A stretch of 33,658 nt of DNA, from NCBI GenBank assembly GCA_001275005.1, contig JWZX01002700.1, forward strand, positions 1 to 33,658, written 5' to 3'. The stretch is from Chrysochromulina tobinii. Lineage: Eukaryota. Shown here piece by piece: positions 3,548-23,546 of this stretch. The notes below the pieces were generated by a model that was not told where the DNA came from, ran no database searches, and saw only the letters and a program-made list of their open reading frames with translations. The translations under genes were made by a program, and so were the position numbers. Numbering within the stretch: position 1 is the first letter of the stretch; every line of letters begins with the position of its first letter.

Positions 3548-6500
3548 ATGATCTTCCCCTGCTACCTCGCGACGGCCTTCGATTCGGTGGACCTGACCCT
3601 TCCGCTGCTCGCGAAGGCCATCGGTGGAGCTGCTCTGCTCGTCGACATCGCGCACCGCGGCACTGCCACGCCTCGCGTCTCCCTCGGTGCGAGCGCACAG
3701 GCCACACTGGAGGTGGTTGAGCGCCTCGGGGGCACCCTTGGCTTCACGCCAACGCCCTACCTTGATGGGTTTGTCGGCGGCCATGCGCAGACAATCTGGT
3801 ATGGGCTCAAACTCGACGAGCCAAGGTTGCCTTTTTATTCAGTGGATTCGTGGCGAACGGAAGATGGAGGCACCGTCGCAATCGCTTGGCCAGATCCTCC
3901 GACGCATCATGAATGGCCACCGACAGCGCCGGTGGTCTTGGTCCTCCCCGGCCTTTGTGGCAGCATCAAAGGCACTGGGCATGCGCTCCAGGCACTGTTT
4001 GCATCTGGCGTGCGGCCGGCCGTGCTGCATGCTCGCGGATGTGGCCATGACCTCACCTCAGCGTGCTTCAACCTCTTCGGCTCCACCGACGACGTGCGCG
4101 CTGCCATCGGCCGAGTCAAGGATCTCTACCCCGGCGCCCGGGTCGGGCTGTACGGCATCAGCGCGGGCACGGCGCTCCTCGTGCGCTACCTCGGTGAGGA
4201 GGGCAGCCGCACGCCCGTCGTGGCCGCTGTGGCCAACTGCCCGGGCTACGATATCGGCGTGTGCCTCACCCGCGTCGGCTGGATCTACGACTGTGGGTTT
4301 TATCTCGGGGTACTGAAGCGTCATTGGCTGGGCGGGCGTAACGGCGAGCTGCTGCGCGTGCGCAACCCAGAGGCATGCCGTCGCATGCAAAGCGCCACCG
4401 ATATGCATGCCTTTCAGGTGGCGGCCTCGCCCTTTGCGGCGCCGGAGGCGGAGGGGGCGGGCCGCGGCGAGGGTACCAGCAGCGGGGCGGTGGGGACTGG
4501 CTTCGCCGCCTTCCTCGCTGCCAGCAACCCAATGGGGGTCGCGCACCGCATCAGCATCCCAGTGCTCATCCTCAATTCCGACGACGACCCCGTGTGCGAC
4601 GCTCGCAACCAGGACGAGAATGTGCCGCCGCTCCTCGCGAGGGGCTGCGAGCGAGCGGTCCTTCTGCGCCTGCCCAAGGGCGGACACTGCTGCTTCGCCA
4701 CGGGCTGGCGAGCCAAGCGCTGGGGCGATCATCTCGCCGCCGGCTTCCTTGCGGCCTTTGCGCGCGAAGAGGGGACGGTGCATGTCGAGGGGCAGGAGGA
4801 GAGCGCCATGTCGAGCGTCAGGTCGAGCGCCATGGCTGCGCTGGGGTCGACGCCACTCACCTCTGCCGAGGTTGGCAGCGCGCCGGTCGCTTCCGCCAGT
4901 GTCGCAACCACTCTAGTGAACTCCGCAGCTGCAGCTCCCAAGGGTTCACATAGCAGCCGTGGCAGCGCCCGTGGCAGCGCCTCGAGCCTCCGCTGGTTCG
5001 GTGCGCCACGGCGGCCGCGCCCCTGGCGGCTCGGGCCGCTGCCGTGGCGGCAGCAGCGTGCTTCGATCGTCATGCTGACGCCGTCGGAGGCGGCCGCTGC
5101 CGCCGAGTCGGAGGCGGCGGCTGCAGCAGCGCTCGTGTCGCCAGCGTCTCCAACGGCCCTGGTCAGCGGGCTCAGTGCCCCGCTCTCGGCCGAGCAAGAG
5201 CAGCGCCAGCGCTCGGCACGGCGCGAGGAGGAGAGCGAGGAGAGCGAGGTGATCGCGATCGCTGCCCCCGCTCTGCTCAACTCGCTGCTGGATCCCTTTT
5301 TGAGCTTCATTGACACCCTTTGGGTTTCGCGGCTCGGCACGACGGCACTGGGCGCGGTCGCTGCGAGCAGTGAGCTCTTCACCCTGACCATCGCCGCGTC
5401 CCTCGCTCTCCGTGAGTCCGCCTCGTCGACGATCGCGCGGCTGGTCGCGCAGGGCCAGTTCCGCGAGGCTGAGTCGTACGCTCGCCGCTCCCTCCAGCTT
5501 GCTCTGGGCATAGGACTCGTGCTCGGCGCCGTCTTGGGCGGTCCGAGCGCCCCTTGGTGCGTCGGCTTGATGGGAGCGCCGATCGGCTCGCCCCTGCACG
5601 CGCATGCGGTTGCCTACGTGCGCATCCGTGCACTCGCGCTGCCGTGTTCGGTTGGATTCTTCGCGGCCAACGGCATCTTTCGCGGCCTCGGCGACACCCG
5701 CGCACCTCTGCGAGCGACGGCCGTGGCGGCATTGGTCAACTTTCTCCTCGATCCCCTGCTGATGCTCCGCCCAATTGGGCTGGGCGTGGCGGGCGTCTCG
5801 GCCGCCACCGCCATTGCACAGGTCTGCGCGTTTGCCCTGCTACTGCGCACGCTTGCTGCGCGGATGCCGTTGGCGTCGCCCCAGGCGTTGCCCTCGCCGC
5901 CCGCGCCGCCCCAGGCGCCGCCCCAGGCGTCGCCCTCACCGCCCTCGCCGCCCTCTCCGAGCTCGCCTGTGGGCGTTCGGGAGGAGGCCTCCGCGCGTAA
6001 GCTCGCAGGGACGAGCCTCGCCACACTCCTTCGCAGCAGCAGCACTGTCGGCACCTGGGTATACATCGCCTCGACCGTCTCGCGCCAACTGGGGCCGACG
6101 GCGATCGCGGCGCACGGGGTCGTGCTCAAGGTGTGGCTCCTGCTCGTCCTCGCGGCCGAGGCGCCCGCCGTCGCCGGCCAGGTGCTGTGCGCGCGCGCAA
6201 TCTCGCAGGGCGAGCTCGCACGAGCTCGCGCTCTGCTGAAGCGGCTGCTCGTCCGCTGCTCCGCTCTCGGAGTGGTGACGGCGGTCGTACTGCTCGCGCT
6301 CGGAGGGCCGGCGAGTGCCTTCTTCTTCACCTCCGCGGACCCAGCAACTGCGGAGCTCACGCGCGGGCTCTTCCGATGGGCTGCCATCTGCACCCCGCTC
6401 ATCGCGCCGAATGCGCTGCTCGAGGCAGTGCTCCTTGGATCAGGGCGCTCGTACAAATTCCTCGCGCTCTCGACCTTCGCCAACGCCCTCGTCGTCACCA

Positions 6501-6673
6501 CGCTCACGACCGCGGCCATCGCGGTGCGCCCGAAGCCCTCGACGGCGTGGGCATGCATCGCCGTATTCTTCGTGCTCCGCATTACGTGCGCGGGGCTGCG
6601 GCTGCGTAGCCCGCGGGCGGGCTTTGGGAGGTGGGGTGACAACTCCAGGGAAGGTGTTCAGCATCCTTCATGA
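3548..6673 (+). CDS. Fusion of an alpha/beta hydrolase (YheT/ABHD1-3-like, ~3770-4765) and a MATE/DinF-like transporter (~5250-6610), 1041 aa
   Basis: Hydrolase motifs: GHAQTIW, DGGTVAIAW, VVLVLPGLCG, ARGCG, nucleophile elbow GISAG, DDPV, GGHC. MATE motifs: IAAPALLNSLLDPFLSFIDTLWVSRLGTTALGA, YVRIRALALP, GIFRGLGDTRAPL, NFLLDPLL, GVAGVSAATAIAQ, LGPTAIAAH. Single uninterrupted ORF. Confidence 0.85.
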   Translation: MIFPCYLATAFDSVDLTLPLLAKAIGGAALLVDIAHRGTATPRVSLGASAQATLEVVERLGGTLGFTPTPYLDGFVGGHAQTIWYGLKLDEPRLPFYSVDSWRTEDGGTVAIAWPDPPTHHEWPPTAPVVLVLPGLCGSIKGTGHALQALFASGVRPAVLHARGCGHDLTSACFNLFGSTDDVRAAIGRVKDLYPGARVGLYGISAGTALLVRYLGEEGSRTPVVAAVANCPGYDIGVCLTRVGWIYDCGFYLGVLKRHWLGGRNGELLRVRNPEACRRMQSATDMHAFQVAASPFAAPEAEGAGRGEGTSSGAVGTGFAAFLAASNPMGVAHRISIPVLILNSDDDPVCDARNQDENVPPLLARGCERAVLLRLPKGGHCCFATGWRAKRWGDHLAAGFLAAFAREEGTVHVEGQEESAMSSVRSSAMAALGSTPLTSAEVGSAPVASASVATTLVNSAAAAPKGSHSSRGSARGSASSLRWFGAPRRPRPWRLGPLPWRQQRASIVMLTPSEAAAAAESEAAAAAALVSPASPTALVSGLSAPLSAEQEQRQRSARREEESEESEVIAIAAPALLNSLLDPFLSFIDTLWVSRLGTTALGAVAASSELFTLTIAASLALRESASSTIARLVAQGQFREAESYARRSLQLALGIGLVLGAVLGGPSAPWCVGLMGAPIGSPLHAHAVAYVRIRALALPCSVGFFAANGIFRGLGDTRAPLRATAVAALVNFLLDPLLMLRPIGLGVAGVSAATAIAQVCAFALLLRTLAARMPLASPQALPSPPAPPQAPPQASPSPPSPPSPSSPVGVREEASARKLAGTSLATLLRSSSTVGTWVYIASTVSRQLGPTAIAAHGVVLKVWLLLVLAAEAPAVAGQVLCARAISQGELARARALLKRLLVRCSALGVVTAVVLLALGGPASAFFFTSADPATAELTRGLFRWAAICTPLIAPNALLEAVLLGSGRSYKFLALSTFANALVVTTLTTAAIAVRPKPSTAWACIAVFFVLRITCAGLRLRSPRAGFGRWGDNSREGVQHPS

Positions 6674-7248
6674 TGTTGTTTCGATTCGCGTACAATTGTG
6701 AATTGTAACATAATGAACATCGTGAAGACCCGGGAGGTGTTCCGGTTTCGCATGCGGGTTTCGGCTCGTGGCAATTGCTCGTGGCACGGTCGTGGCCTCG
6801 TCCCCCCCTCTAGTGTCTTGTGTGAACGGTGGATGAGTCTAGTCCCTTCTATCCATCTATACCCAATTATACCCTCGTCACTGATCCGATCCCCTCCACA
6901 TCTTGCGATCGGGCTCCTCCGCGCTGACCGCTGAAGGACGACCGGTCGGTAAGAACCTGCCAAGGGGCGATCTCGGAGGCATCGGCTCCGTTGAGCCCCA
7001 GGCGTCGCGAGAGGGGTGATTAGACTCAACAAGGTCACGAACACTCTCGACTCTCCCCTGAGGAATCCCTCCGGAGTCCGGACCCTCCGGTATCTCGTAC
7101 GACCTCCGACGGAGGTTACCGGTCTAAGTATTGTTCCGTTAGGCCCGTTACTCGCATGCCTAGCAGAAAATGGAAAATCGATTCGCCGACGGAGTTCCGA
7201 CGGTCCGCCACAGCAGGAGCCTCGCCGACCGTCTTCGTGGCGTGATCG

Positions 7249-9981
7249 ATGACGTCTATGAAAGCCACGCTCTTCCTCGCGCTCGTCGCCTCGGCCGCGG
7301 GCGTCATCATCCGAGGCCCGAGCGTCACCTATGATACATACATCAGGGCCGGCACTAATAACGCTACAAACTACAACCACTTGAACATCGGGGGGTGGGA
7401 CGGACCGTTCACGATCTCGGCCACGAACGTCGTCTCAGGCGTCACTTCGGACACGTGCGCCGTCCTGATGAAGTTCGACTTGAGCTCCATCGTCGGTGCC
7501 ACGCTCGTGCCGACCAACCCGGTCTGGCTCAACTACTTTGTGATCGACGCGGGCAACCCCGCCTCGCTCCGCGAGCTCACCGTTCCCTGGGACCATGTGT
7601 GTGCACACGCCGCCTGCGAAGACGCGCGCTCCCCACACAACCGCGTGTGGCACCCTGGCTGAGGCCCTCTTCCCGCTGACGCGTCCCTTTCTGCCCCTCC
7701 CTGCTTTTTCGACAGTCCACGGTCACGTGGACCAACCTCCCATTCGCACCGTCATCGTGGAACAACTCCAACGTCGGCGGCGCCGGAGCCTTCCCAGGAA
7801 CCCTTGGCTGGCAGAGGTTTGACGTGACCTCATCGATTGCCGCGTGGCTCGCCGGTAGCCGTACAAACAACGGCTGGATTGTGTTGCCTACTGGCGGCAA
7901 CAACGGCGTCGATCTACAGTTCTCGACGAACGTGAACTCCCCGTACCTCGATGTCCCAACGGTGGGGAGTTCACCTATAGGTGAACTCTACGGCGCCGCC
8001 GCCTCCGAGCCCCTCTAAGCCGCCGCCTCGTGCACCGCCGCCCCCGAGCCCGCCCATGCTGCCTCCCTTCGGGATGCTCGAGTTCAACAGCCAGACGGCG
8101 AGCGTCTCCGGCGGCTGCCAATCGGCAACAATCTCCACCGACAATCCGAACAGAAACCAAGGCCCGTTGGCGGCGCCGGGCCCTGCGCCGTCTAGCGAGC
8201 TCTTGTCCTGGGACGGCGCTTCGATCACGGGCCACCGGGACTACGTCGTGTTGCAGTTCACCAACCTCTTTGGGACTGCGAGCCACCAAATCCATCCGCA
8301 CGACATCGTTACGGCCGCAAAGTTTCGCTACTTTATTTCCGACGTCGGCGAGCAAGCAAGCGTGCACGAGATCCTCCATCCATGGAATGCCAATACCGTG
8401 ACGCTCAACAGCTTCGCGGGCAGCGGTGGCCTCACGGTGGGGGCTGACTACCGCGCGGAGGTAATCGCCACTGCACCGGGGACTTCGGGCTGGAAAGAGA
8501 TCGACGTCACCGCGTCCATCCTCCGGTGGCTCGGGACGAATCCTTCCGGCACGAACAACAACGGCTGGATTTTCGTGCCCACGGGAGGCAACAACGGTGC
8601 CCAGATCCGTAGCTGCACCTCGTCTGCTAGTCAGCGCCCATACCTGCAGGTCAACTATCAGCTCGCGCCGCCCGCGCCGCCCTCACCGCCCCGCCCGCCG
8701 CCCTCGCCGCCCCGCCCGCCGCCCAAGCCTCCCCCGCCGCCCTTGCCGCCACTCGACGCCATCATCCTCTCAGGCCCGAGCGCCTCGAGGTCGACCTGGA
8801 TCCGCTCGACGCAGCCCACAACTGTGCAAGCGCAAGCGCCTTACCCGAACAACGTCATCTGGTGGGACGGCAACTCCCGAGATGAGACAGACCGCGACTA
8901 CGTGCTTCTCTGGTTCGACATTTCGGGGATCCCAGCGGGCCGCTTCCAGTCCGCGACCCTCCGGTACGTTATCGGCGGGGACGGCAACTCGCCGGGCAAT
9001 ATGGGCGAGCTGCACGAGCTCCTCGTCCCGTGGAGCATGTCCACCTCGTACAGCTCGCTGCCGTACGTGCCCACCAGCACCACCGGCGGCTCGTCGAGCA
9101 CCTATGGCGCGGCGGATCACAACATGCCGTGCTCCCTTGGCACCCACTCTGTCGATGTGACCGACAGCGTCAGGGCGTGGCTCTCTGGCACGCCCAACTA
9201 CGGCTGGATCGTGGTCCCGACCTTTTCCGACGGCTGCGGCATGCAGTCGCACCTCTCCACCACGGGCGGCGCGCCCCAGCTCATCGTCTCCCTCGTCGCG
9301 TCTCCGCGGGCGCCGCCCTCGCCGCCCTCGCCACCGGCCTTGCCACCGTCGCCGCCCTCGCCACCGCGGCCGCCGCCGCGGCCGCCGCCGCGGCCACCGC
9401 CGCCGTTGCTGCCGGGCGCAAGCTACGTTGCCGCCATCACAGCGACCTTCACCGTGGCGGGCGATGTCTCGAGCTTCGATCAGAACGCATTCAAGAACCG
9501 CCTGGCGACCCGTTTGGGCGTGTTCTCGTCCGCGATCTCGCTCAGCGTCACCTCCGCTTCCGTCGCGGTCGCCGCCACCATCTTGTACCCGAGCCCGGCG
9601 GCGGCGAGTACCGCGGCGGCGACGCTCGCCGCGACGACGCCAGCCGCGCTCAGCGCTGCGCTTGGCGTCACCGTGCAGGCGGTTGCCAACGTCGCACCGA
9701 CGACGGTCGCCGTCGCTCCGCCCCCGCCGCCGTTCAACTCCGGCAGCCTGGCTTTGAACGCGGGCAGCGGGGCCGGCGTGTCTTCCAGTGTGGTGATCGG
9801 CGTTGCGGTGGGCGTGGGCGTGCCTCTCTTCGTGCTCCTCGTCGCCATCATCGTGTGCACCTTTAAGCTCCGCCAGAAGAAGGCGACGACGATCGTCAAG
9901 GCCATCCCGACCACGACCATCGACAACCCGATAGCGCAGTCCTCGGCCACGAGCGGCGTCGAGATGAAGGACGCAATCTGA
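7249..9981 (+). CDS. Type I membrane protein, paralog B: signal peptide, three DNRLRE(CBM96)-like domains with Pro-rich linkers, a possible SEA-like module, one TM helix and a short tail. Exon 1 is 7249-7596, intron 7597-7715, exon 2 starts at 7716. The frame is disrupted by a 13-bp insertion at 7978-7990.
   Basis: Signal peptide MTSMKATLFLALVASAAG. DVT..(I/V)..WL...N(N/Y)GWI occurs three times. TM segment VVIGVAVGVGVPLFVLLVAIIVC is followed by basic KLRQKK. The 119-nt GT-AG intron is homologous to the paralog A intron. Confidence 0.8.
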
Positions 9982-10973
9982 GCCCGCGGTAGGCTGGTAC
10001 GCGCGCGCGCGGCGGTGCAGGCGGCGGCGGCGAGGGCGGGGGCGGCAACGAAGGCGGGGACGGCAACAAACGCCCCTCTGGGAGGGAATGGCAGAGGGAA
10101 AGGTCCCTTTGGGAAAGGTGGTAACCGTGGCGGCAGTGAGCTGTGGTAGGCGGCGGCAGTGACAGGGAGGGAGAAGGCGCCCGCGTGGGGCGATGCGCGC
10201 GGCGATAGTCCGTGCCGCTGAAGATGGCTGGCAAGTTGAACCGGTGTGCTCAGCTAGAGTTTGCGCGTGGTGATTACGATACGTGGTGATATTCTTGTGT
10301 GGGTTCGAAGCCGAGCACGCCCGGTGCCCCGTTCGGTGTACGAGTACGTTGAAGGTTCACGCGCTCGGACCGGTTCCGCAACTTCCATCGGGGTACACGG
10401 CGGACGTAACGTCGATGGTACGATGGACCATTATGCAAATCGGATAACTCCCGGTACTCCCCGCGTCCCCGCCGCCCCCGGCGACAGCCCGCGCGACCGC
10501 GGGGCGGCGCCGCGCGCCCGCGGCGTCGGGGGACCAACCACGCCCACGCGGCGGGGGGGCGGCGCGCGCGACCGTCGTAGGTTCGCGCCTTCTCGCCGCG
10601 CTTATCTCGCAATCTCGGCGCGCGGGCGCGCGCGGCGGTTCTCGAGCGCGTCACAATCGCGTTCACTGTCGATGTATTCAAATTCATGACCCTTTCCGAA
10701 CCGGCTACCGGGGCAACGGCGCCGACGCTCGGCGATGCGGTTGCCGGACCGGCTGCGCTGACGGTCGCCGAAAGGCTGAAGACTCTAGCGCTGAATACAT
10801 ACGTCGTGGAGTCGCGCCCGCGGCCCGGCTCTACTCGTGCGCCACCGCTCTTGCATAACTTGCAACGGTTACATGTACATGATTGTACACGACCACGTCA
10901 ATTATCAACCCGAATCCACAGTCGTACACATTTCATGGATCCCTCAGCGGTTCTCCTGTTGTCTCCACCTCGC

Positions 10974-12203: not shown

Positions 12204-12226
12204 TTGACTTGACTTGACTTGACTTG
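12204..12226. repeat. (GACTT)n microsatellite in the ~207-bp bidirectional intergenic region
   Basis: ttgacttgacttgacttgacttg, lying between the ATGs at 12053 (-) and 12261 (+). Confidence 0.85.
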
Positions 12227-12260
12227 TCTTGCGGAATTCATCTTCTCAGCGTCGTCGAGC

Positions 12261-15200
12261 ATGCCTCGCACGCGCACCTGCGTCTGCGTCCGCTGCGAGA
12301 AGTCGTATCGCACGACTTACCGTGGCGCACAACCACTTTGCAAGCAGTGTACGCCCGATAAGGCTGCAGGCGCCTCTCCACCCGTAAAGGCTGTTGGCAC
12401 CGGGCCTGGCCAGACAAGCGGCGCACAAGGCGCCTCTCCGGCCTTTGAGAGCGTGTTGTACATGCCAAAGGAGGCGGAGCTCGCCTTCACGGCTGGGCAC
12501 TGCCTGTTACACTCGATCACCGCCATGGATCCGTACGCTGACACCTCCTTCGAGGAGCTGCGGCACGCGGCATACCAGCAGTCGCCGCCACCGCGGACGG
12601 TTGACGGGTTCGTGGGTGAGGGCTTCTGCGACGCGCTCGAGCTCCGGCGCATGCGCAAGCACCAGGTGGCACTGACGCTGGCGCCGGACGGCGCCGGCGG
12701 CTGTGCTGCCATCCTGCATGTGCGCTCGACCGGCCCGCGCCAGGTGGCCGCCCCTGTGGCTCTGTCGGAGTTGTGGGAGTTCGCAAACTTCCCGGTCCAG
12801 CTGCCCGGCGCACCGTCGGAGCTCGCCCAGCGCGAGAACTTCGAGCCGATGATCGTGTGGGAGGAGGGAGCTTGGTTCGCCACCCGAGGCTGGATGGACA
12901 TCGGTGACCACGTGTTCGAGAGCATGGGCGACGTGCCCTCGTCGGACCGAACGGACTGGGAGGGGTCGCCTCGAGGAGCCCAACACGGCGCTCCATCTCG
13001 AGGAGCCCAACACGGCGCTCAATCTCGAGGAGCCCAGGGGCATCCATCGTCGGGGCAGCAGTGCCCCGCTTCGGGGCCGCTCGTCTGTGACGAGGCGCCC
13101 GAGATGGCGCCCGAGCTGGTGAGAAAGCGCCGTGGCGCGCGGCTGCAGTCGATCACTGCCTCGGAGGTACACGCGCATGCATCCTTCGAAGAGATGCGCT
13201 TCGCTGCGTGGCAGCGCCCGTCGGGCGGGCCGCCGTCGTTGGCCTACGGCGGCGGCATCACCGCCTCACTCGCCTCCGTCGCCTGCTTCACCTCCGCGCC
13301 CAACATGGCGCCTGCCTCGCTTCTCGCCTCGACCTTCGGCGCCCAACACGGCGCCCACGCCTGGCCCAGGGCACCTTTGGCCCCAACGGACGTTTCGCCG
13401 CGAGCTCTCACCGCCATGGGCGCCGTGCTGGGCAGCACCGTCGGCGCCGCCTTCGCTGACGCCGCCGGCGCCCCGCCAGGGCCAGAGCCGCTGCTCGGCT
13501 GCCTGCCGTTTGGCGCTCCCACCTTGAGCACGCTCCAGCTGGCTGCCTCGAGGGTCGCGGCGGCCATCCACGACAGCCGCCAGCGTAGGCGGCTTCGTGC
13601 TGGCGCTGCCAGTGGCGTCGACGGCGACGTCGACGTTGGCGGCGGCGGCGGCCGAAGCGGCAGCCGGAGCGGCAGCGTCGGGCGGCAGATGGGCAGGAGT
13701 GGGCAAAGGGCGGATCGGATGCTTGTGCTCGTGTGTGGTGGGGCGGCTGGGGGCGCCAACGAGATACCGGTAGAGATCTGCGTGGCCTCGAGCGCCGCCG
13801 TGCGCGCGCTCTGCGCCACCATCCACCTGATGCTCTCGTCTGGCTTTGGCGACGACGAAGACGAGGACGAGGACGACGATGACGAGGACGAGCGTGCGCA
13901 TCCTCCTGTGGAAGGAGCTGTGGAAGGAGCCAGGGAGGTGCACGCCGCAGCCGCGGCAGAGGGCCGCCCTGTCGAGCCGATCACGGTGGAGCCATGCGCC
14001 GGCCGACCCATGCGCGTTGCATCGACGGCTCCCAACGAGTCCGCAACACCGACGGACACGGCGCCGCCCGACACGGCGCCGCTCGACACGGCGCCGCTCG
14101 ACACGGCGCCGTCCATACGTTTGACGATGCCGCCATTGCTGACGGTGCTGAGCCTCCAAGCCATCGTCGACTACTGCATGCTCCGCCAGCGTGTGAGCTC
14201 GGCCGAGCCTCTTGCACACGACCTTCCACACGACCCGATCGCGCGGCACGATCCCATCGCACACGATCCGATCGGCTGGATGTGCCGCCGCGCCCATCTA
14301 GGCGAGGGCTTCAGCCCTGCCGAGCGCCGTGCCTTGGGATGGACAAGGCGTGCGAGCAGCAGTGCATGCAGCAGTTCATGCAGCAGTGCGGGCCGCGGAG
14401 GCGGCGGCTTGGGCGATGCCGCGGGCAGCGTCGGCGACGGCGATGGGGAGTTCCCACAGGCGCCTTCAGAACTGCCCACACCCTTTGACACACCCTTCCT
14501 ACGCCCGCGCCCGAGCGATCCCGCCCGATTCGCGCCGCCCTTTGCGCCGCCCTTTGCGCCCACGGTCTCGCCGCTGGTGGTGGATGCGTCGGGTCGCCCT
14601 TGCCGCCTGCAGGCCATCACGGCGATGGCGGCGTATGAGAGCGCTTCCTTTGAGGAGATTCGCTTCTCCGCGTGGCTACGCGACAAGAGCGACCAAGGGC
14701 GCCTCGCGACCGACGCGCCGATGCAACGGCGGGCACTGCTGCCGCCGCTTCCCTCGTTGCCGCATTCCTCGTTGATCGACGACGACGACGTCGGCGGCGG
14801 CGGCGGCGGCGGCGCTGACGACGACTGGTCTTCGCCACTGCCAGTCCTCGCCTCGCCACCGCCCGCGCGCGCCCTCGCCGCCCCTCGGGATATCCGCACC
14901 GTCGCCGCCACCACTCAGAGCGGCCAGGCTCTCGCACCGCCGGCGCTCGCACCGCCGCCGCTGCCGTTACCGGCCGACAGTCCGACCCCTTCGCTGCCAG
15001 CCGAACCGGAGGGCCCAGAGCCCAACACGACGCCTAGTTGGTTCGAGACTTCTTTTCACGGGGCCGCTGCCGCCGGCGCCACGGCGCCCGGTACGGCGCC
15101 CGGTACGCCCACGTGGCTCCCAGCGGCTGGAGGGTCGAGCGCTGCGTCGAGCGCTGCGACGAGCGCTGCGTCGAGCGCTGCGTCGGGCGCTGCGTCGAGC

Positions 15201-17402
15201 GCTGCGTCGAGCGCTGCGTCGAGCGCTGCGTCGAGCGCTGCGTCGAGCGCTGCGTCGGGCGCTGCGTCGGGCGCTGCGTCGAGCGCTGCGTCGGGCGCTG
15301 CCTCGAGCGCTGCGTCGGGCGCTGGCTTGGGCCGACAGAGGCTGCGGCCGCCGCCGCTGCTGGCCCCGTTGGAGGTGGACTCGACGGCACGGCCGCTGCT
15401 GACCACACGCATGCTCCGCTCACTCCTCAGCTCCTCCTCCCTGCAGGCCCAGCCGCGCGCGTGGCGGCTCATGGCGCTGGACTTTCACACCGCCACGGCG
15501 CTCGCGCAGCTGCCCACGCGCGGCGTGTGCGAGCTGGCCACGGCGGCCTCGTATCTCGACTGTGCTCCGCTGCTCGAGATCGCAATCTCGAATCTCGCCG
15601 AGCGGCTGGGCTCGTGCAATCTCCCGCACGAGATCCGCGCCCTCTTCGACATGCCCGAGAGGGACTCGCCGCAAGCGCCGTACTGCGCGCCACAAGCGAC
15701 CGCGCCACAAGCTACCTTCGCTCGTGCCGCCGCCGACAGCAAAGGGTCCGGCGCTGTGGTAGCCATGGCCGGCGCTGTGGTAGCCATGGCCAGCACGGTG
15801 GCAGCCGGCGGTGGCCAGGTGCGAATCATCCATGATGGCCGTGGCGATGATGTGGTCGGCGGCTCGCCCTTTTTAGGCAGCCGTCGACATAGTGAGCGCC
15901 ATGCTGAGCGCTCTCGGCTGACAGCAGAGGAGTCCTCGCGCTTTGCTCCACTGCCATCCCCTCTAGCTGCGGCCTCGCGCCCTCCTGCCGCGCCGCCCGC
16001 GTCGTCGGCGCTTGCGCTGAAGCGGCGCCAGGGCAAGAAAGGGCATGGCAGGAAGCGCACGGCCGGCCTCGAGGCGACAGCGCATGGGCATTCGTCGGGC
16101 AGCCGGGCGGATGACGAGGTGGAGGGCGGCATGAGCGCCGAGGAGGAGGAGGAGCTGCATTGGCTGGAGACGCTCGGTGTGAACGAGGAGGCTCGATGTG
16201 AACGAGGAGGTGAGGATGAGGAGGCTGGCGCGGTGGAGGCGGCGACGACTTTGCCGACCGATCGCCCACCCTTTGCTTTGGCCACGCTCACCACGGCGCT
16301 CACCACGGCGCTCACCGCCACCTCGTCGTCAATCGCGGCAGACACAGCCGCCGCCACTGCCACTGCCGCCACTGCCACTGCCGCCACTGCTGCCGCGACC
16401 GCCGCCGCGGCCGCCATCCCAACGGCTTGGCCGGTGGCGAGCCTGGCCACGCCGTACCTGGACGCAGACCTCGTCGAGCAAGCCCTGCTGCGTCTACCGA
16501 TGCGATCGCTCCTCATCGCGCGTCGCGTGAGTGAAGCGTGGCGCGCCGGCGTGGCACTGCTGATGCGCAACTCAGCGTGGCAGGTTCGTCATGTGGGTGT
16601 GCGCGAGCTGCTCGAGGGCGGTGCGAGTGACGAGACGATCGCTCGACGCGCGCAGCTCGCGCGTCATGAGCTCGAGGCGATCGATCAGGATGGCAATACG
16701 CCCCTCCACTTGGCAGTGCGCTGTGCTGGGCGTGAGCCGCTTGGCGCATCTCCGCAGACGTCGCGACGAGACGCGAGCGAGCACAGGCGCCAACGCGAGC
16801 TCGACGAGCTCGAAGAAATCGACGAAATCGACGAAACGGCCACCGCGGCGAGGAGCTCGTCGAGGGCAGCCGCGCGGCTTGCCGGCGGCGCTACGGGCGG
16901 CAGCGCCCGTTCTGTGCGCTGTCCCGAGCGGATCTCGGCAGAGCTGCTGAGCGCCATGGCGGCCGCAGGTGCCGAGACGGCGGCTCTCTCGGCCGAGTAC
17001 CGGCGGGGCGAGGTGCCTCTCCACGTGGCACTGCGCCTCGGCCTGGGGCGGCCGAAGGTGCTCGCCCTCCTGCACGCTGCGCCGCGCGCCGCCTCGTGTC
17101 TCGACTACCGTGGCCGCTCGCCCCTGCACCTGGCCGCGTGCTACGGCGCGCCGTGCGCGGTCGTGCAGGCCCTCCTCAACTACCGGCCTCACGCGGCCGT
17201 CACCTGCGATGACGAAGGGCACTCGCCCCTCGATTTGGCGCTTCGTCGCAAGCACGCCAACCCACACGTCATCGCAATGCTCGAGCGGCATCGCGACGCC
17301 GTCTTTGTCGCACTCGAGGCCGACGATCTGCAGTGGACCTTTGGCGAGCAGACCGAGACTGAGACCGAGGAGGACGACGAGCACGAGCTCTTCACGCCGT
17401 GA
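12261..17402 (+). CDS. Large multidomain protein (~1713 aa): N-terminal CxxC..CxxC finger, 3 GLEBS-like motifs, split Skp1-like domain, F-box-like motif and C-terminal ankyrin repeats
   Basis: First ATG is at 12261. GLEBS-like: LHSITAMDPYADTSFEELR, LQSITASEVHAHASFEEMR, LQAITAMAAYESASFEEIR. Skp1-like: ELATAASYLDCAPLLEIAISNLAERL...PHEIRALFDM. F-box-like: LDADLVEQALLRLPMRSLLIARRVSEAWR. Ankyrin: DQDGNTPLHLA, GEVPLHVA, DYRGRSPLHLAA, DDEGHSPLDLA. Confidence 0.85.
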   Translation: MPRTRTCVCVRCEKSYRTTYRGAQPLCKQCTPDKAAGASPPVKAVGTGPGQTSGAQGASPAFESVLYMPKEAELAFTAGHCLLHSITAMDPYADTSFEELRHAAYQQSPPPRTVDGFVGEGFCDALELRRMRKHQVALTLAPDGAGGCAAILHVRSTGPRQVAAPVALSELWEFANFPVQLPGAPSELAQRENFEPMIVWEEGAWFATRGWMDIGDHVFESMGDVPSSDRTDWEGSPRGAQHGAPSRGAQHGAQSRGAQGHPSSGQQCPASGPLVCDEAPEMAPELVRKRRGARLQSITASEVHAHASFEEMRFAAWQRPSGGPPSLAYGGGITASLASVACFTSAPNMAPASLLASTFGAQHGAHAWPRAPLAPTDVSPRALTAMGAVLGSTVGAAFADAAGAPPGPEPLLGCLPFGAPTLSTLQLAASRVAAAIHDSRQRRRLRAGAASGVDGDVDVGGGGGRSGSRSGSVGRQMGRSGQRADRMLVLVCGGAAGGANEIPVEICVASSAAVRALCATIHLMLSSGFGDDEDEDEDDDDEDERAHPPVEGAVEGAREVHAAAAAEGRPVEPITVEPCAGRPMRVASTAPNESATPTDTAPPDTAPLDTAPLDTAPSIRLTMPPLLTVLSLQAIVDYCMLRQRVSSAEPLAHDLPHDPIARHDPIAHDPIGWMCRRAHLGEGFSPAERRALGWTRRASSSACSSSCSSAGRGGGGLGDAAGSVGDGDGEFPQAPSELPTPFDTPFLRPRPSDPARFAPPFAPPFAPTVSPLVVDASGRPCRLQAITAMAAYESASFEEIRFSAWLRDKSDQGRLATDAPMQRRALLPPLPSLPHSSLIDDDDVGGGGGGGADDDWSSPLPVLASPPPARALAAPRDIRTVAATTQSGQALAPPALAPPPLPLPADSPTPSLPAEPEGPEPNTTPSWFETSFHGAAAAGATAPGTAPGTPTWLPAAGGSSAASSAATSAASSAASGAASSAASSAASSAASSAASSAASGAASGAASSAASGAASSAASGAGLGRQRLRPPPLLAPLEVDSTARPLLTTRMLRSLLSSSSLQAQPRAWRLMALDFHTATALAQLPTRGVCELATAASYLDCAPLLEIAISNLAERLGSCNLPHEIRALFDMPERDSPQAPYCAPQATAPQATFARAAADSKGSGAVVAMAGAVVAMASTVAAGGGQVRIIHDGRGDDVVGGSPFLGSRRHSERHAERSRLTAEESSRFAPLPSPLAAASRPPAAPPASSALALKRRQGKKGHGRKRTAGLEATAHGHSSGSRADDEVEGGMSAEEEEELHWLETLGVNEEARCERGGEDEEAGAVEAATTLPTDRPPFALATLTTALTTALTATSSSIAADTAAATATAATATAATAAATAAAAAIPTAWPVASLATPYLDADLVEQALLRLPMRSLLIARRVSEAWRAGVALLMRNSAWQVRHVGVRELLEGGASDETIARRAQLARHELEAIDQDGNTPLHLAVRCAGREPLGASPQTSRRDASEHRRQRELDELEEIDEIDETATAARSSSRAAARLAGGATGGSARSVRCPERISAELLSAMAAAGAETAALSAEYRRGEVPLHVALRLGLGRPKVLALLHAAPRAASCLDYRGRSPLHLAACYGAPCAVVQALLNYRPHAAVTCDDEGHSPLDLALRRKHANPHVIAMLERHRDAVFVALEADDLQWTFGEQTETETEEDDEHELFTP
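12970..13036 (+). repeat. 27-bp coding tandem repeat x2.5 (RGAQHGAxS)
   Basis: CTCGAGGAGCCCAACACGGCGCTC(C/A)AT at 12970 and 12997, with a partial copy at 13024. Confidence 0.9.
15134..15324 (+). repeat. 12-bp coding minisatellite x16, encoding S(S/G)AA
   Basis: GTCG(A/G)GCGCTGC units, in frame within the large ORF. Confidence 0.95.
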
Positions 17403-18378: not shown

Positions 18379-20474
18379 TCAAAGTTGTTGCGAAATGTTA
18401 CGATGATGGATGTCATATCCCTTGCGCGCCAACCCTGCCGCATCATCGTCGATGTCGTCGTCGACTTTCGCCTTGACCTTCTTCAATGTGCTCTTCATTT
18501 GCGCATTCTGACTGTCTAGCTTTGATGCTTCAGCCGCTTTGCGCTCCTTGGACTCCGACGCCATGACGTTGCGTTGCCGCCCCGCCTCCTCGTCGGTGAT
18601 GTCGGTGTCCGTTGCCGCCTTGGCACTATTCAGTCCGTGCGCGAACTCGGCATTCTCTCGCGCGAGCCTCTCCGCCTCCTCTTGCTTTCGCTTACGCGAG
18701 GCTGCTGCAGCTTGGCGCCGCGCTTCGCCCAATGCCTCATCGGTGACGTCATCATCCGTCGCTGCCTTGACACTCTTGAGCCGCTTGTAGATCTCCAAGT
18801 TTGCCTGCGCAAGCGCCGCCGCCTCCGCCTTCCTGCGCTCCTTGGACTCGATCGCCATCTCTTTGCGTCGCACGGCCGAAGCTTCCGTGTCTAGCACGTT
18901 ATCCGTGACCGCCGTGACATTCCTTATGCGATGAGCCCTCTCGGCATTCTCGCGCGCTATCCGCTTTCGCTCAGCCTCTTTCCTCGCCTTGGAGTCGGCA
19001 GCAGCCTGGATGCGTGCCTCACCCGCCGCCTCGTCGGCGACGTCGTCGTCCGTGCGCTGCGTCACGGAGGCAATCTTCTTCAGGATCTCGGCATTCTCCG
19101 CGCCGATTTGGGAGTCCGCAAGGTCATCCATCGAGTACAGCTTCCGAAACTCGGAGCCATCGAACTTTACCGCCGCCTCGCGCTTCACAAAATGGGCCGA
19201 GAAGATCTTGTTCCGCACGCTCTGCCTGCTGGAGAGCGTCAGCCGCTCATTCTCTTCGATCTCAGCCTGGGTATCTCTCCTCAGCTGCGCAATCCGCCGT
19301 CGCCTCTGCTTCGTGAGCTGCTCCCTTGATTGCCCAGCTTCCTGCTTCATCTTTGCAACGCGCTCGCGCTTCTCCTTTTGCATGGCCATGAATTCCTCCC
19401 CTAACTGTGCCTTGCGCGACATTTCCCGCTCGGTGTCGGCCCGCAGTTGGGCGGCGTCCTTCGCCTTGCGACGGTGACTGAGCTGTAAGGCTTTGGTCAA
19501 CTTAGCATTCGTCGTCTGTTTCAGCAGCTCCGCAGCTTGGTGCCGCTCTTCGGTCGTCCGCTGCCGAAATTCTTGCACACTCTCGGCGAAAGCCAGCTTT
19601 TCCCTCACGTGCTCCTCCCGCAAAGCAGCCGCTGCAGCCTCTCCTGTACATCAAGCCGTGCATCCTTGCTGTCGTACCCGCCTTTGTCCTTCTCCACCTG
19701 CGCCCGGACAACGGCGTGGTGCTCCTCGCGAATCCGCTCAATTTTGTGCGCGTTGTCGATGCTCTCTTGTCGGACTTGACGTCCCTGCTCGAGGTTCCGA
19801 CGGATGAGCGCCCGCTGCACCCGATCGTTGACGCTGCGCATGCGTTCGCGCTTTTCCTGCGAGGCCTCGTACTGCTGGCGCGCCTTCTCTTGACGCACCT
19901 CGTCGCGCGTGCTACGATCTGCGTGCGCCTGCTCCACTGTGGCGCGATTTTCGAGTGACCTTTGGTATTTTGCGTACACGCCGGCGCTCACCGGCGACTC
20001 GCGAGCACTGCCAAGCAGGTCGACCGCGCCATTGCTCGCCGCTGAACGCGCCGTGCTCATGCCGAAGCCTTGTGATCTCGCCGAGTTGCAGGTGGAGCGC
20101 GCCGTCAGCGCGCCACCGGAGCGCGCCGTATGCGCGCCACCATCCTCAGGGTTCTGAGCGCGCACAATTCCACCCCGCGACGTGGCGTATGCCGCGCGTG
20201 TGAGTGACTGGGTGCGGATCTCGAAATTGGTGACTTTCTCAGGCAGTGCGCCATGCTCCTGCCCCCATAGGAGCGTGCCCATAAAGGTCAAATTGCTGAA
20301 GAACCACGTGCGCGTGGAGCTGAAGCTAATCGCCTGGAGCAAGCTACCGTTGTTCACGCGCTCGGGCTCGCGGCTTGTTAGCTGGCCGTCAGCGTTGACC
20401 ACCATCTTCGAATGCGATCCGGAAGCTGTACGGGCTGTTGCCGGCTCCGGATCTGTCGGTAGCGGGTCTTCCAT
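18379..20474 (-). CDS. Coiled-coil protein with ~4-5 tandem 49-aa repeats. Probably one gene split by a 1-bp frameshift near 19640. Start codon uncertain.
   Basis: ORFs 19605-20474 and 18379-19623 overlap and share E/R/K/Q/A-rich helical composition. Adding one G (CAG GAG [G]AG GCT GCA) gives DVQEEAAAAALREEHVREKL. The repeats begin TDDDVADEAAG, TDNVLDTEAS, TDDDVTDEALG, TDTDITDEEAG and VDDDIDDDAAG. Confidence 0.7.
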
Positions 20475-21104: not shown

Positions 21105-23546
21105 CTATGCATGATGCAAGTCGCTGTCGTCGGCCTTGGAAGCGAAAAGGGAAGCGCGCGCAGAGCTGATCAACCCCTCGAAGACGCCAGCCGCTCGCAG
21201 ATCTTTCTCGTGGCACTTCTCTGTCTGCCCTGAGCCAAGCGTTTCGATCTCCACGGTGTAGAGCGCCTCCTCTGCATCCTCCTCTGCATCGTACGCGTTC
21301 ACATAGGCGAGAGTCTCCTCTCCGTTGCTGCGCTTCAGGTACACGCAGCTGCCGATGGCGTAGCGCTTCAGAATTAAGTCGGCCACCTTCTCCGAGACGG
21401 CAACACCAACAGTCTCAGGCTTCAACATAGGCGCATCAATCACATGCTCACTTGCTGGCGGTGACGCTTGCTTTCGAAACATCTCAATGACATGCCTATC
21501 GATCTCCAGGATCTTGGGCAACATGGTCTCCTTGTCCTTTGCATTGGTAACGATCACGTCCGGCTTCTTGAGGTGCTCGAACATTTCCTCGGGCGTCTTC
21601 TTGGACACCTTTTGAACGAGCCCCTCCTTATCATGCGTTTCGTCAGCCGTGTGGATACATTCAATCGTGTAGCGACTCTCAGCCTCCGTTGCGGGGCGGA
21701 GCCCATTGGACGTGACCGTCTGCATCGAGCACCATGCCTCCGTCAGCGGCCAGAATCTGGATGCGTACGACCCGTCGAGGAGAATGAGGACGCGCGCAGT
21801 CAGGTAAAGGTCGGCCATGGCGGCAAGCATCAGCTGGAACTCGGCCTTATCGTCGGGAGTCCGAGTGTCAACGCCATCCACTTTCTGGGGCATTGACGAG
21901 TAATCAAACCAGACCCACTTGATATCTGTGTGCGCTTCCAGATACGCCTTGATGGCCTTGAGTTGCTCGCCGTCGACATCAGGCTGGCTTTTGTCTTCCC
22001 ACCGATGGCTCACGAAGAGGATGTTCGCCATGATGCCACCGCCACAAAATGCGGGTTCGTGGAACGCGGATGCGAGGGGTATTCTTATCTTCGTTAGGTG
22101 GCCGTCCTTGCGCAGCGTCTGCATGCGAGGCAGCGACTTGGTGTCGCACTCGCGCACCCTTTCGGCGGGGATGAAGTAGAAGGAGGGTGCGTCGTCGTCC
22201 CACCCTTGGCTTTTGAGCTCTTTGATGGCCTGCTCCACCAGCTCCTTTTGGGCTTCGTCGGAGATACGCAGGCGTGATGCATACTTTTTGAGGAAGTCGA
22301 AGTTGCATGCCAAGACGAAAAGAAAGTACAGAGCAAATTTGCCATATAACAAGAACGGAGCACACTCGCCGTAGCAGGTCAAAGGCAGCTCGTACTTGTT
22401 CATCAGGTCCGTTCGGTCAAAGTAAGCGGCCGGGCGCGGTACAGAAAGTCGTTGCACAATGATGAGGAGGCGCATGAATGAGAAGAGTGTCAGTATCAGT
22501 GACGCGAGGCCCAGCACCATGGCAACGAGTATGTGTGGAGCGAGCAAGTGCTCATAGCCGTCGTCAGCGCTTGCACGGCCAGTGCCGAAAATGAAAAGTG
22601 AGATGAGAAACCAGGATGCAAAAATGAAGACGTTCACGTCAATTACGTCGCTCCCTAGGACTTGCACCATCGGCGCGTACTGCACGGCCTGGCACAGGTC
22701 CTCGTAAGTCACGTAGCCGCAATTGGGCACGGCAGGGCAGCTGGCATTGGCGGCAGATGCCTCGAACGCCGATACAAACGCAGCCTGGTCCTCACAAGCG
22801 ATGCCGTTGAGTGATAACTCAACGAAGACATTCAGCAGAGTCGCTTCAATTGGCACCCGCTGCATCGCCGTCAGAGCATAGGTGGCCACGCACGCCATTA
22901 TCATGGTGATGATGCCGACCCGCACTGCTTGCGAGAGGACGAATGACTTGTACTTCTCTTGGTATTTCTTGATGGAACGCAGCACAATCGTAAAAGAGTA
23001 GAATACGACAACAGCCCAGATATTGCCGAAGAACCAACCGAATACGTAAAAATCCAATTGCTCGCGAAAGTAAAACGCGAAGTATCCATAGATGGAGACG
23101 AGATACAAAGCAAACTCCAACGACATGGGCCACGTCCAGACGCGCTCGGTAAGGGCGTTTTGTTTACTGGCATCGTCAGAATCATTGACCTGGGCGAGGA
23201 GGAGCGATAAAAAGAGAGGAGGAGTTGAAGCGGCCCAGACTAGGATTCCAAGGGTCTGCCCTGCGGAGAGCTCTGTAAAGGACCCGGTCCAACCGGCGAC
23301 TTGATCACGTCGTGAGTATTGAGTGCCGGTGAACAATAAGAACATGGGCGCGGGCAGGGCCAGAAACAGGCGAAATAGTACGAAGGTCTGCCGGGTCTTG
23401 TCGGGCCACTTTCCAGAGGGCGTTCGACGTTTTGTCTCCTTGGCGGCAGGCATTCGCTCGGTTGCAGGAGGGACTGGGTCGATCGACGTGAGTGCGCTGG
23501 GAAGGACAGGGGCTTGGGCGCGGCGGGACATTTCGGAGCGAGCCAT
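21105..23546 (-). CDS. Multi-pass membrane protein (~8 TM) fused to a HET-like (heterokaryon incompatibility, TIR-related) domain and a C-terminal SH3/Tudor-like barrel, 813 aa
   Basis: About 8 hydrophobic segments lie at 22300-23390. HET-like motifs: ILFVSHRW...PDVDGEQL, WVWFDYSSMPQ, MLAAMADLY..ARVLIL, YASRFWPLTE. C-terminal barrel: IGSCVYLKRSNGEETLAYV...YTVEI...EKDLR. Confidence 0.85.
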   Translation of the reverse strand: MARSEMSRRAQAPVLPSALTSIDPVPPATERMPAAKETKRRTPSGKWPDKTRQTFVLFRLFLALPAPMFLLFTGTQYSRRDQVAGWTGSFTELSAGQTLGILVWAASTPPLFLSLLLAQVNDSDDASKQNALTERVWTWPMSLEFALYLVSIYGYFAFYFREQLDFYVFGWFFGNIWAVVVFYSFTIVLRSIKKYQEKYKSFVLSQAVRVGIITMIMACVATYALTAMQRVPIEATLLNVFVELSLNGIACEDQAAFVSAFEASAANASCPAVPNCGYVTYEDLCQAVQYAPMVQVLGSDVIDVNVFIFASWFLISLFIFGTGRASADDGYEHLLAPHILVAMVLGLASLILTLFSFMRLLIIVQRLSVPRPAAYFDRTDLMNKYELPLTCYGECAPFLLYGKFALYFLFVLACNFDFLKKYASRLRISDEAQKELVEQAIKELKSQGWDDDAPSFYFIPAERVRECDTKSLPRMQTLRKDGHLTKIRIPLASAFHEPAFCGGGIMANILFVSHRWEDKSQPDVDGEQLKAIKAYLEAHTDIKWVWFDYSSMPQKVDGVDTRTPDDKAEFQLMLAAMADLYLTARVLILLDGSYASRFWPLTEAWCSMQTVTSNGLRPATEAESRYTIECIHTADETHDKEGLVQKVSKKTPEEMFEHLKKPDVIVTNAKDKETMLPKILEIDRHVIEMFRKQASPPASEHVIDAPMLKPETVGVAVSEKVADLILKRYAIGSCVYLKRSNGEETLAYVNAYDAEEDAEEALYTVEIETLGSGQTEKCHEKDLRAAGVFEGLISSARASLFASKADDSDLHHA

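What the first reader, a model, noticed from the sequence alone, without database searches (positions are those of the whole stretch)
12261..17402. One polypeptide combining 3 GLEBS motifs, Skp1, F-box and ankyrin repeats: a candidate self-contained SCF adaptor tethered to Rae1/Bub3
Seen: three GLEBS-like motifs, Skp1-like segments (~13720-14190 and ~15460-15660), an F-box-like motif (~16450-16580), a basic NLS-like patch (KRRQGKKGHGRKR) and about 4 ankyrin repeats (16680-17285) in one intronless ORF. Known: Skp1 and F-box proteins are normally separate SCF subunits, ankyrin repeats serve as substrate receptors in some F-box proteins, and GLEBS motifs bind Rae1/Gle2 or Bub3. Inference: an intramolecular Skp1-F-box pair could plug directly into Cul1 and be positioned by Rae1, coupling ubiquitylation to mRNA export or mitosis, or it could act as a decoy. 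I do not know this architecture from any described protein.
Basis: partly seen in the sequence, partly recalled or inferred. Interest (0 to 1): 0.85.

Follow-up and report, generated by a model that had tools for sequence, protein, structure and literature searches.

The report
Rae1-docking Skp1/F-box/ankyrin fusion in alga
A haptophyte alga has one long, transcribed gene that joins three copies of the motif that docks the mRNA-export factor Rae1 to a split and heavily changed Skp1-like fold, a borderline F-box and ankyrin repeats; it likely works as a Rae1-anchored adaptor of ubiquitin-ligase type, but the fused Skp1 part probably no longer plugs into a cullin in the usual way.

Summary
The 1,713-codon frame is real. 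It is intact in a 90%-identical relative across 25 indels, and RNA contigs read through the two large 'introns' of the public 596-aa model, which would delete GLEBS 2-3, half of the Skp1-like part and the F-box. Nup98-type GLEBS (35.6 bits, cutoff 27) and ankyrin repeats pass Pfam. The F-box is borderline (14-21 bits, cutoff 20.5) and has Asp where F-boxes have the L-P proline. The Skp1 likeness is real for the C-terminal helices (above all 500 shuffles; Atlas Skp1 clusters 0.92), moderate for the middle piece and not significant for the first piece and the last helix. Pfam Skp1 does not hit; only 13 of 41 near-invariant Skp1 positions are kept, and between the two relatives these pieces change as fast as the linkers. 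The F-box/ankyrin end also occurs behind a fibronectin-III domain in another protein, so the fusion is modular and so far seen whole only in close relatives. Most likely it is a Rae1-tethered ankyrin adaptor whose F-box binds a Skp1 fold; a self-contained Cul1 plug is possible but less likely. No binding was tested.

The parts
12261..17402 (+). Single open frame, 1713 aa (P0001); the public 596-aa model (P0081, named Ctob_005076 of Chrysochromulina tobinii by its source) skips 13119-15446 and about 16210-16970
   Evidence: RNA cover; full-length relative P0002
12282..12350 (+). CxxC-x16-CxxC zinc-ribbon-like start (metal binding inferred)
   Evidence: sequence; four Cys kept in P0083 at about 50% identity; best-predicted part of the N-terminal model, pLDDT 62-72; only weak Pfam hits
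12438..12584 (+). GLEBS copy 1 (Nup98 type)
   Evidence: PF21240 21.1 bits on a cut, E 0.00034; 47 of 49 identical in P0002; kept in P0083
12585..12875 (+). Conserved domain of unknown kind between GLEBS 1 and 2
   Evidence: 91 of 97 identical in P0002; about 50% identical in P0083 and P0084; no Pfam hit, no useful Atlas hit, low-confidence model
13116..13220 (+). GLEBS copy 2 (short; EE pair kept)
   Evidence: aligns with copies 1 and 3; 35 of 35 identical in P0002; no Pfam GLEBS hit alone
13716..13859 (+). Possible Skp1 N-terminal piece (two strands, helix, acidic loop); weak
   Evidence: best place for Skp1 profile 4-34 but 41 of 200 shuffles reach the score; not docked in the model's Skp1 match; no PDB hit
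14106..14195 (+). Skp1 middle piece (strand 3 and helix 3 like)
   Evidence: best place for profile 39-61, 3 of 200 shuffles reach it; packs with the C piece in the seeded model
14526..14684 (+). GLEBS copy 3 (best copy), inside the long insert of the Skp1-like fold
   Evidence: PF21240 24 bits on a cut, E 4.1e-5; PDB hits are 4 Nup98 GLEBS chains only; 52 of 53 identical in P0002
15441..15665 (+). Skp1-like C-terminal helices (AAS-YLD..LL..P.EIR..F)
   Evidence: 26 of 28 PDB hits are Skp1, best E 0.37; Atlas Skp1 clusters 0.90-0.92; own profile 10.5 bits vs best shuffle -1.5 of 500; hhalign 51%, E 0.00015
16020..16058 (+). Basic patch, possible nuclear localisation signal (untested)
   Evidence: sequence; basic residues mostly kept in P0002
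16131..16163 (+). Acidic helix that may stand in for Skp1's last helix; not significant
   Evidence: best place for profile 140-156 but 110 of 200 shuffles reach it
16434..16580 (+). F-box-like motif, borderline; Asp1401 at the L-P proline position
   Evidence: PF00646 14.3-20.6 bits, cutoff 20.5; 48 of 49 identical in P0002; homologous stretch in P0008 has no F-box hit
16683..17336 (+). Four ankyrin-like repeats, with an insert of about 55 aa after the first that P0008 lacks
   Evidence: Pfam Ank families above cutoff; PDB ankyrin hits; 135 of 137 identical in P0002 over repeats 2-4

Best explanation
The gene is one transcribed frame for a mostly disordered scaffold that likely docks on the mRNA-export factor Rae1 through three Nup98-type GLEBS motifs, likely catches a partner or substrate with its ankyrin repeats, and is predicted to hold a Skp1 fold on its F-box, either its own diverged copy folded back in cis or the cell's normal Skp1 in exchange. 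In this reading it works like an F-box/ankyrin substrate receptor that is parked at Rae1-containing complexes (nuclear pore, mRNA particles or spindle). The fused Skp1-like part would act as a built-in cap or placeholder for the F-box rather than as the Cul1 dock, so ligase activity would need the cap to be swapped for cellular Skp1, or a non-cullin ligase as in the PHR/Fbxo45/Skp1 complex. Shown: frame, RNA cover, motif matches, conservation pattern. Inferred: every binding step and the link to ubiquitin.
For: GLEBS passes Pfam and hits only Nup98 peptides in the PDB; the EE pair that makes the Rae1 salt bridges in Nup98 (PMC3783196, passages) is in all three copies. GLEBS, F-box and ankyrin parts are 96-100% identical between P0001 and P0002, linkers 87% (modules 627 of 667, linkers 820 of 938, Fisher p 9e-6; 1 vs 24 indels). 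The F-box/ankyrin end exists without any Skp1-like or GLEBS part in P0008 (57% identical, fibronectin-III N-terminus), so that end is a unit of its own. The Skp1-like C helices are real and keep the P.EIR..F helix; helices H6-H8 are the F-box-locking ones (PMC11734646, one passage). The four best places of four Skp1 sub-profiles lie in the right order in P0001 (ends 527, 642, 1133, 1302). Precedent for Rae1 beside a Skp1/F-box module without cullin: PHR proteins (PMC4806438, passages).
Against: The F-box is at the Pfam cutoff at best, the P0008 counterpart gets no F-box hit, and no F-box protein is among the PDB hits. The Skp1-like pieces are no more conserved than the linkers (131 of 149, 88%), and several hydrophobic H5 positions are changed, so the cap may be a relic. 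In P0002 the best place for the first Skp1 sub-profile is not the expected one. The structure model was seeded with Skp1 rows, its Skp1 match (Z 8.0) ties with an unrelated repeat protein (Z 8.4), and Foldseek gives no E below 0.03. No RNA piece links GLEBS 3 to the C-terminal half. The whole fusion is seen only in close relatives.
Confidence: 0.45

Rival explanations
1. Self-contained SCF adaptor: the three Skp1-like pieces fold into a whole Skp1, bind the F-box in cis and plug into Cul1, giving a one-chain substrate receptor like the BTB adaptors of Cul3, positioned by Rae1.
For: Skp1 pieces in the right order, with the inserts at the two acidic loops of Skp1; the seeded model joins the middle and C pieces across about 415 residues as in Skp1 (82 residues aligned, rmsd 3.6); only 1 indel in 149 aligned Skp1-like positions.
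Against: 13 of 41 near-invariant positions kept; both conserved Asn changed (Cul1-contact role recalled); first piece not significant and not docked; F-box proline replaced (its role in cullin binding is recalled, and PMC4806438 says only that one F-box residue explains the lack of cullin in the Fbxo45 complex); pieces change at linker rate.
Confidence: 0.17
2. Rae1-binding ankyrin scaffold with no ubiquitin role: the F-box-like helices are only a cap of the ankyrin stack and the Skp1-like part is a decaying relic of a captured paralog; the protein brings an ankyrin-bound partner to Rae1.
For: Borderline F-box scores and none for P0008; the F-box-like stretch runs straight into conserved helices before the first ankyrin repeat; Skp1-like pieces show no extra conservation.
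Against: The stretch matches a clear plant F-box letter for letter at RLP..SLL..R.VS..W; finding a Skp1-like and an F-box-like part in one chain by chance is unlikely (inference); Skp1-like C helices take no indel and mostly conservative changes.
Confidence: 0.2
3. Decoy: the protein soaks up Rae1 (three sites) or other F-box proteins and so damps mRNA export or SCF assembly, without making a ligase itself.
For: Three GLEBS copies against one in Nup98 (recalled), all strongly conserved; cullin-facing positions changed.
Against: The ankyrin and F-box end is the most conserved part, which a mere sink would not need; RNA contig depths are low (about 2-9), though contig depth is a poor measure of level.
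Confidence: 0.13
4. The long frame is not one protein: the public spliced 596-aa model, or two genes read in one frame, is right.
For: Both skipped stretches have GT..AG ends and lengths divisible by three; listed RNA pieces leave 14750-15433 uncovered; no spliced joint was seen anywhere to prove that these runs would show one.
Against: RNA contigs cross the first donor in 4 of 6 runs and the second in 5 of 6, with no matching joint; both 'introns' are stop-free in frame (0 and 9 of 2000 shuffles are) and stay open in P0002 across 15 and 4 indels; the 'introns' hold motifs 98-100% conserved.
Confidence: 0.05

Closest known systems
Nup98/Nup116 GLEBS motif (Pfam PF21240; PDB 3mmy, 4owr, 7byf, 7vpg)
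   Same: Core Q/H-x-IT-A-M..Y...S-x-EE-x-R with the EE pair; only PDB hits of copy 3.
   Different: Three copies in a protein with no FG repeats seen in the sequence and no other nucleoporin domain in Pfam; copy 2 is short.
F-box plus ankyrin substrate receptors and Skp1-binding ankyrin proteins (chlorovirus A682L/A607R with viral Skp1 A039L, PMC7019647, passage; Legionella AnkB, recalled, its Skp1 complex is listed)
   Same: F-box-like motif next to ankyrin repeats; a Skp1 partner.
   Different: There Skp1 is a separate, whole protein; here a split, diverged Skp1-like fold is in the same chain, the F-box proline is Asp, and GLEBS motifs are added. No relative of the F-box/ankyrin end was found in viral contigs.
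PHR (Highwire/RPM-1/MYCBP2) - Skp1 - Fbxo45 complex with Rae1 (PMC4806438, PMC9120709; passages)
   Same: Rae1 binding, a Skp1 and an F-box with a changed residue meet in one assembly, reported to lack a cullin in flies and mammals.
   Different: Separate chains; PHR carries its own RING ligase and a different Rae1-binding domain; no sequence likeness was found or sought here, and no RING domain is in this protein.
Skp1 family (Pfam PF01466, PF03931)
   Same: C-terminal helices with AA.YL...LL and P.EIR..F.
   Different: Below Pfam detection; split by inserts of about 80 and 415 residues; 13 of 41 near-invariant positions kept; last helix not found with confidence.
BTB-ankyrin one-chain Cul3 adaptors such as NPR1 and ABTB1 (recalled)
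   Same: A Skp1/BTB-type fold and ankyrin repeats in one chain.
   Different: They have no F-box and no GLEBS (recalled); the fold here carries the Skp1-type P.EIR..F helix, and Atlas ranks Skp1 clusters first among named ones.
Yeast Mad3 GLEBS link to SCF-Cdc4 (PMC6095599, passages)
   Same: A GLEBS protein brings a substrate to an SCF ligase.
   Different: Bub3-type GLEBS, separate chains.

Membership tests
Nup98-type GLEBS | Pfam PF21240 at or above cutoff 27 | tested here: met
   35.6 bits for P0001, 30 for P0002 (sums over copies); single copies 21-24 bits on cuts
Nup98-type GLEBS | EE pair for the Rae1 salt bridges | tested here: met
   invariant in the three copies; role from PMC3783196
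Nup98-type GLEBS | Hairpin before the EE helix | tested here: inconclusive
   model shows strands 73-88 and helix 95-106 for copy 1 but pLDDT is under 40
Nup98-type GLEBS | Binds Rae1/Gle2 | not testable with these tools
   no Rae1 sequence of this organism was held
Bub3-type GLEBS (Bub1/Mad3) | Closer match to Bub1/Mad3 than to Nup98 | tested here: not met
   copy 3 hits 4 Nup98 chains and no Bub1/Mad3 chain up to E 10; Pfam gives only PF21240
Skp1 family | Pfam PF01466 / PF03931 hit | tested here: not met
   no hit on the whole protein or on three cuts, up to E 1 and E 10
Skp1 family | C-terminal F-box-binding helices with AA.YL..LL and P.EIR..F | tested here: met
   weak in absolute score, above 500 of 500 and 200 of 200 shuffles
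Skp1 family | Whole BTB/POZ core (two N-terminal strands, helices 1-4) | tested here: inconclusive
   middle piece 3 of 200 shuffles, first piece 41 of 200; seeded model docks the middle piece only
Skp1 family | Near-invariant residues incl. the Asn of LPN and AAN | tested here: not met
   13 of 41 kept against 115 Skp1 domains, both Asn changed; register of the N pieces set by hand, ungapped
Skp1 family | Last helix (H8) after P.EIR..F | tested here: inconclusive
   not adjacent; a look-alike 160 residues on is reached by 110 of 200 shuffles
F-box | Pfam PF00646 at or above 20.5 | tested here: inconclusive
   14.3, 19.1 and 20.6 bits by length of the cut; none for the P0008 counterpart
F-box | L-P proline at the start of helix 1 | tested here: not met
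   Asp in P0001, P0002 and P0008; position fixed by the profile numbering and P0114
F-box | Binds Skp1 | not tested
SCF substrate receptor | Assembles with Cul1-Rbx1 and ubiquitylates a substrate | not testable with these tools
   needs pull-down and assay
Ankyrin repeat | Pfam Ank families above cutoff | tested here: met
   Ank_2 38.6 (27.3), Ank 26 (21.1), Ank_5 27.3 (27)

The most novel reading that the evidence does not exclude
A one-chain SCF adaptor: a Skp1 fold that reassembles around 500 residues of inserts, locks its own F-box and, with ankyrin repeats as receptor, is moored by three Rae1 molecules at the nuclear pore or on exported mRNA particles, giving a ligase module that cannot be exchanged and that marks proteins at the site of mRNA export.
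Probability: 0.17. Interest if true: 0.85.

Novelty: new variant of a known kind. Interest (0 to 1): 0.58.

Why it matters
SCF ligases depend on Skp1 and F-box proteins being separate, exchangeable parts (established knowledge); a natural chain that holds both, and ties them to Rae1, would test whether exchange is needed and would give a direct link between ubiquitin ligases and mRNA export outside animals. Even in the weaker reading it shows GLEBS used three times as a portable Rae1 anchor on a non-nucleoporin, and it corrects a public gene model that cuts two thirds of the protein away. Limits: seen whole only in Chrysochromulina-like relatives, and nothing about binding is shown.

Tried and rejected
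Assembly artefact: rejected; 14 DNA runs hold 97% of the sampled words (they may be one culture), one laid run tiles the frame with 0-1 other letters per piece, broken at repeats, L002 encodes the same 1713 aa and P0002 keeps the architecture. Public spliced model: rejected as the main form (see rivals). Viral origin: a scan of viral contigs with the F-box/ankyrin alignment found no relative among 70 pattern matches. Pfam hits DUF3793, HTH_upst_double_PIN, PapZ_C, DUF7564, NQRA_SLBB and the Atlas Condensation rows were below cutoff or shared few features and were set aside. PDB sequence search of the Skp1-N stretch gave only acidic-run matches. The model of residues 1-327 is too poor (mean pLDDT 34) for a fold search, which was not run. 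The F-box part of the second model was barely tested by the fold searches, so the lack of an F-box match there says nothing. No whole genome was held, so the organism's own Rae1, Skp1, Cul1 and any paralogs could not be looked up. dN/dS against the 96%-identical L001 over 786 codons is 0.43 on only 23 synonymous and 28 other changes, too few for per-domain values. RNA-free stretches inside the frame are not taken as evidence of introns since the piece tables are cut. Paper searches with no description of this architecture: GLEBS+F-box+Skp1 (4 papers), Skp1 domain+F-box domain+fusion+single polypeptide (0), GLEBS+BTB (10 listed, none on such a protein by title and abstract start), Chrysochromulina tobin+genome+ankyrin (2); three searches for the F-box proline's role found 0 papers, so that role stays recalled. 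The library lacks most subscription papers; no supplements were read, and gene tables of the genome paper could bear on the gene model.
Full report
Observation. The frame 12261-17402 (+) is open for 1713 codons. The host is a Chrysochromulina-type haptophyte: a public model of this locus is named Ctob_005076 of C. tobinii by its source, and a neighbour's cluster holds a C. parva protein. No whole genome was held.

Is it one protein? The public model has 596 aa and skips 13119-15446 and about 16210-16970, which would remove GLEBS 2 and 3, the first two Skp1-like pieces, the F-box and the first ankyrin repeat. Both skipped stretches have GT..AG ends, but both are stop-free in frame, which 0 and 9 of 2000 base shuffles are. 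A relative, P0002 (1684 aa, 90% identical, one ENA contig), keeps one frame across 25 indels, 15 and 4 of them inside the two 'introns'. Six RNA runs were laid as contigs: pieces cross the first donor in 4 of 6 runs and the second in 5 of 6 with 31 or more letters on both sides, and no joint matches either intron. The listed pieces cover 4289 of 5142 bases and leave 13553-13645, 14750-15433 and 16865-16940 open; the tables are cut and the bins there have low but mostly non-zero depth. RNA depth is zero at 18384-19500 in 4 of 4 runs and at 1468-2051 and 10228-10811 in 3 of 3, where a DNA run covers 30 of 30 bins of its stretch, so the signal is unlikely to be DNA. Against: no spliced joint was seen in any gene as a positive control, contigs give no strand, the runs may be one campaign, and no piece links GLEBS 3 to the C-terminal half.

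GLEBS. Pfam Nup98_GLEBS scores 35.6 bits (cutoff 27) for P0001 and 30 for P0002. The three copies share S-F-E-E-x-R; the EE pair is the one that makes the Rae1 salt bridges (PMC3783196, passages). Copy 3 hits only four Nup98 GLEBS chains in the PDB (E about 0.05), which points to Rae1, not Bub3. Copy 2 alone is not detected.

Ankyrin and F-box. Ankyrin families pass their cutoffs. The F-box scores 14.3 bits in the whole protein and 19.1 and 20.6 on shorter cuts (cutoff 20.5), gets no F-box hit in the PDB, and its counterpart in P0008 gets none in Pfam. It does match a clear plant F-box at RLP..SLL..R.VS..W, and by the profile numbering Asp1401 stands where that F-box has the proline; P0002 and P0008 have Asp too. 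That this proline helps cullin binding is recalled; three searches found no paper, and PMC4806438 says only that one F-box residue explains why the Fbxo45 complex has no cullin (passage).

Skp1. Pfam does not detect it. The C-terminal piece is Skp1-like: 26 of 28 PDB hits up to E 10 are Skp1 (best 0.37); Atlas gives Skp1 clusters at 0.90-0.92 with 170-189 shared features, behind one unnamed cluster at 0.93; a profile of 115 Skp1 domains (of 120 proteins listed) scores 10.5 bits against -1.5 for the best of 500 local shuffles; hhalign gives 51%, E 0.00015. Sub-profiles place four pieces in the right order (ends 527, 642, 1133, 1302), but only two beat shuffles (C 0 of 200, middle 3 of 200; first 41, last 110 of 200), and in P0002 the first sub-profile prefers another place. 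The inserts fall where Skp1 has its acidic loops. A model seeded with eight Skp1 rows is confident only for the middle piece (pLDDT 70-82) and the C piece (75-93); it joins them as in Skp1 (Z 8.0, 82 residues, rmsd 3.6), level with an unrelated repeat protein (Z 8.4) and without the first piece; Foldseek lists Skp1 chains first but with E 0.03 or worse. The seeding makes this partly circular. Only 13 of 41 near-invariant positions are kept, and the Asn of LPN and of AAN are both changed (the family sample is of close Skp1s, and the N-piece register was set by hand). Between P0001 and P0002 the Skp1-like pieces are 88% identical, like the linkers (87%), while GLEBS, F-box and ankyrin parts are 96-100%.

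Range and modules. A search of 1.84 billion representatives with residues 281-1460 found 5 proteins, 4 of them near-identical fragments. The fifth, P0008, has the F-box/ankyrin end at 57% identity behind a fibronectin-III domain, with no GLEBS or Skp1-like part; it rests on one contig. Two Logan proteins on short contigs (P0083, P0084) share GLEBS 1, the unknown domain and the start of GLEBS 2 at about 50%, P0083 also the zinc ribbon; what follows in them is unknown. Of 120 listed long proteins with a Skp1 domain (187 found), 1 has an F-box (a single plant record with broken Skp1 copies), none GLEBS or ankyrin. So the parts are mobile modules and the whole fusion is seen only in close relatives; that search reached only close Skp1s, so other diverged fusions are not excluded. 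Earlier AI notes of this scan describe fungal BTB proteins and Mx-like dynamins with a GLEBS tail; I did not check them, and take them only as a lead that GLEBS is a portable anchor.

Mechanism. Most likely (0.45) a Rae1-moored F-box/ankyrin adaptor whose F-box holds a Skp1 fold, with the fused, diverged copy as a cap or placeholder rather than the Cul1 dock. Rivals: ubiquitin-free scaffold with relic parts (0.20), self-contained Cul1 adaptor (0.17), decoy (0.13), split or spliced gene (0.05).

Novelty. Each part is known, and functional analogues exist as separate chains (PHR-Skp1-Fbxo45 with Rae1; chlorovirus Skp1 with ankyrin partners; Mad3 with SCF-Cdc4; all read as passages). Four paper searches found no description of this architecture, within a library that lacks most subscription papers. 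I rate it a new variant of a known kind, interest 0.58.

Noticed in passing
window 6640-10970 vs L001: The 96%-identical relative L001 lacks this 4.3-kb stretch (536 other bases instead); it holds a membrane-anchored gene with CBM96-like domains (7249-9981), and a paralog about 80% alike lies at about 371-1283 on the minus strand. Copy-number variation of a surface-protein family.
   Followed up: partly
window 12585-12875: Conserved domain of about 95 aa between GLEBS 1 and 2, about 50% identical in two distant Logan proteins, with no Pfam, Atlas or fold assignment.
   Followed up: partly
P0008 (ENA, 614 aa): Fibronectin-III plus likely coiled coil plus the same F-box-like/ankyrin end; a second architecture of this module.
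   Followed up: partly
window 29105-31738 (minus): Gene with DUF4231 and SLATT_1 domains (SMODS/SLOG-associated 2TM effector, best known from bacterial defence loci; recalled) split by a GT-AG intron near 29850-29965.
   Followed up: no
window 3548-6673: Single frame of 1041 aa joining an alpha/beta hydrolase to a MATE transporter; about 1010-1020 aa in several relatives.
   Followed up: no
window 21105-23546 (minus): The 813-aa frame has a public model of only 471 aa in the same cluster, so short gene models may be common on this contig.
   Followed up: no
window 12204-12226: Short TTGAC tandem just upstream of the start codon, where contigs of other loci pile up; several RNA contigs begin at 12258-12283.
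   Followed up: no
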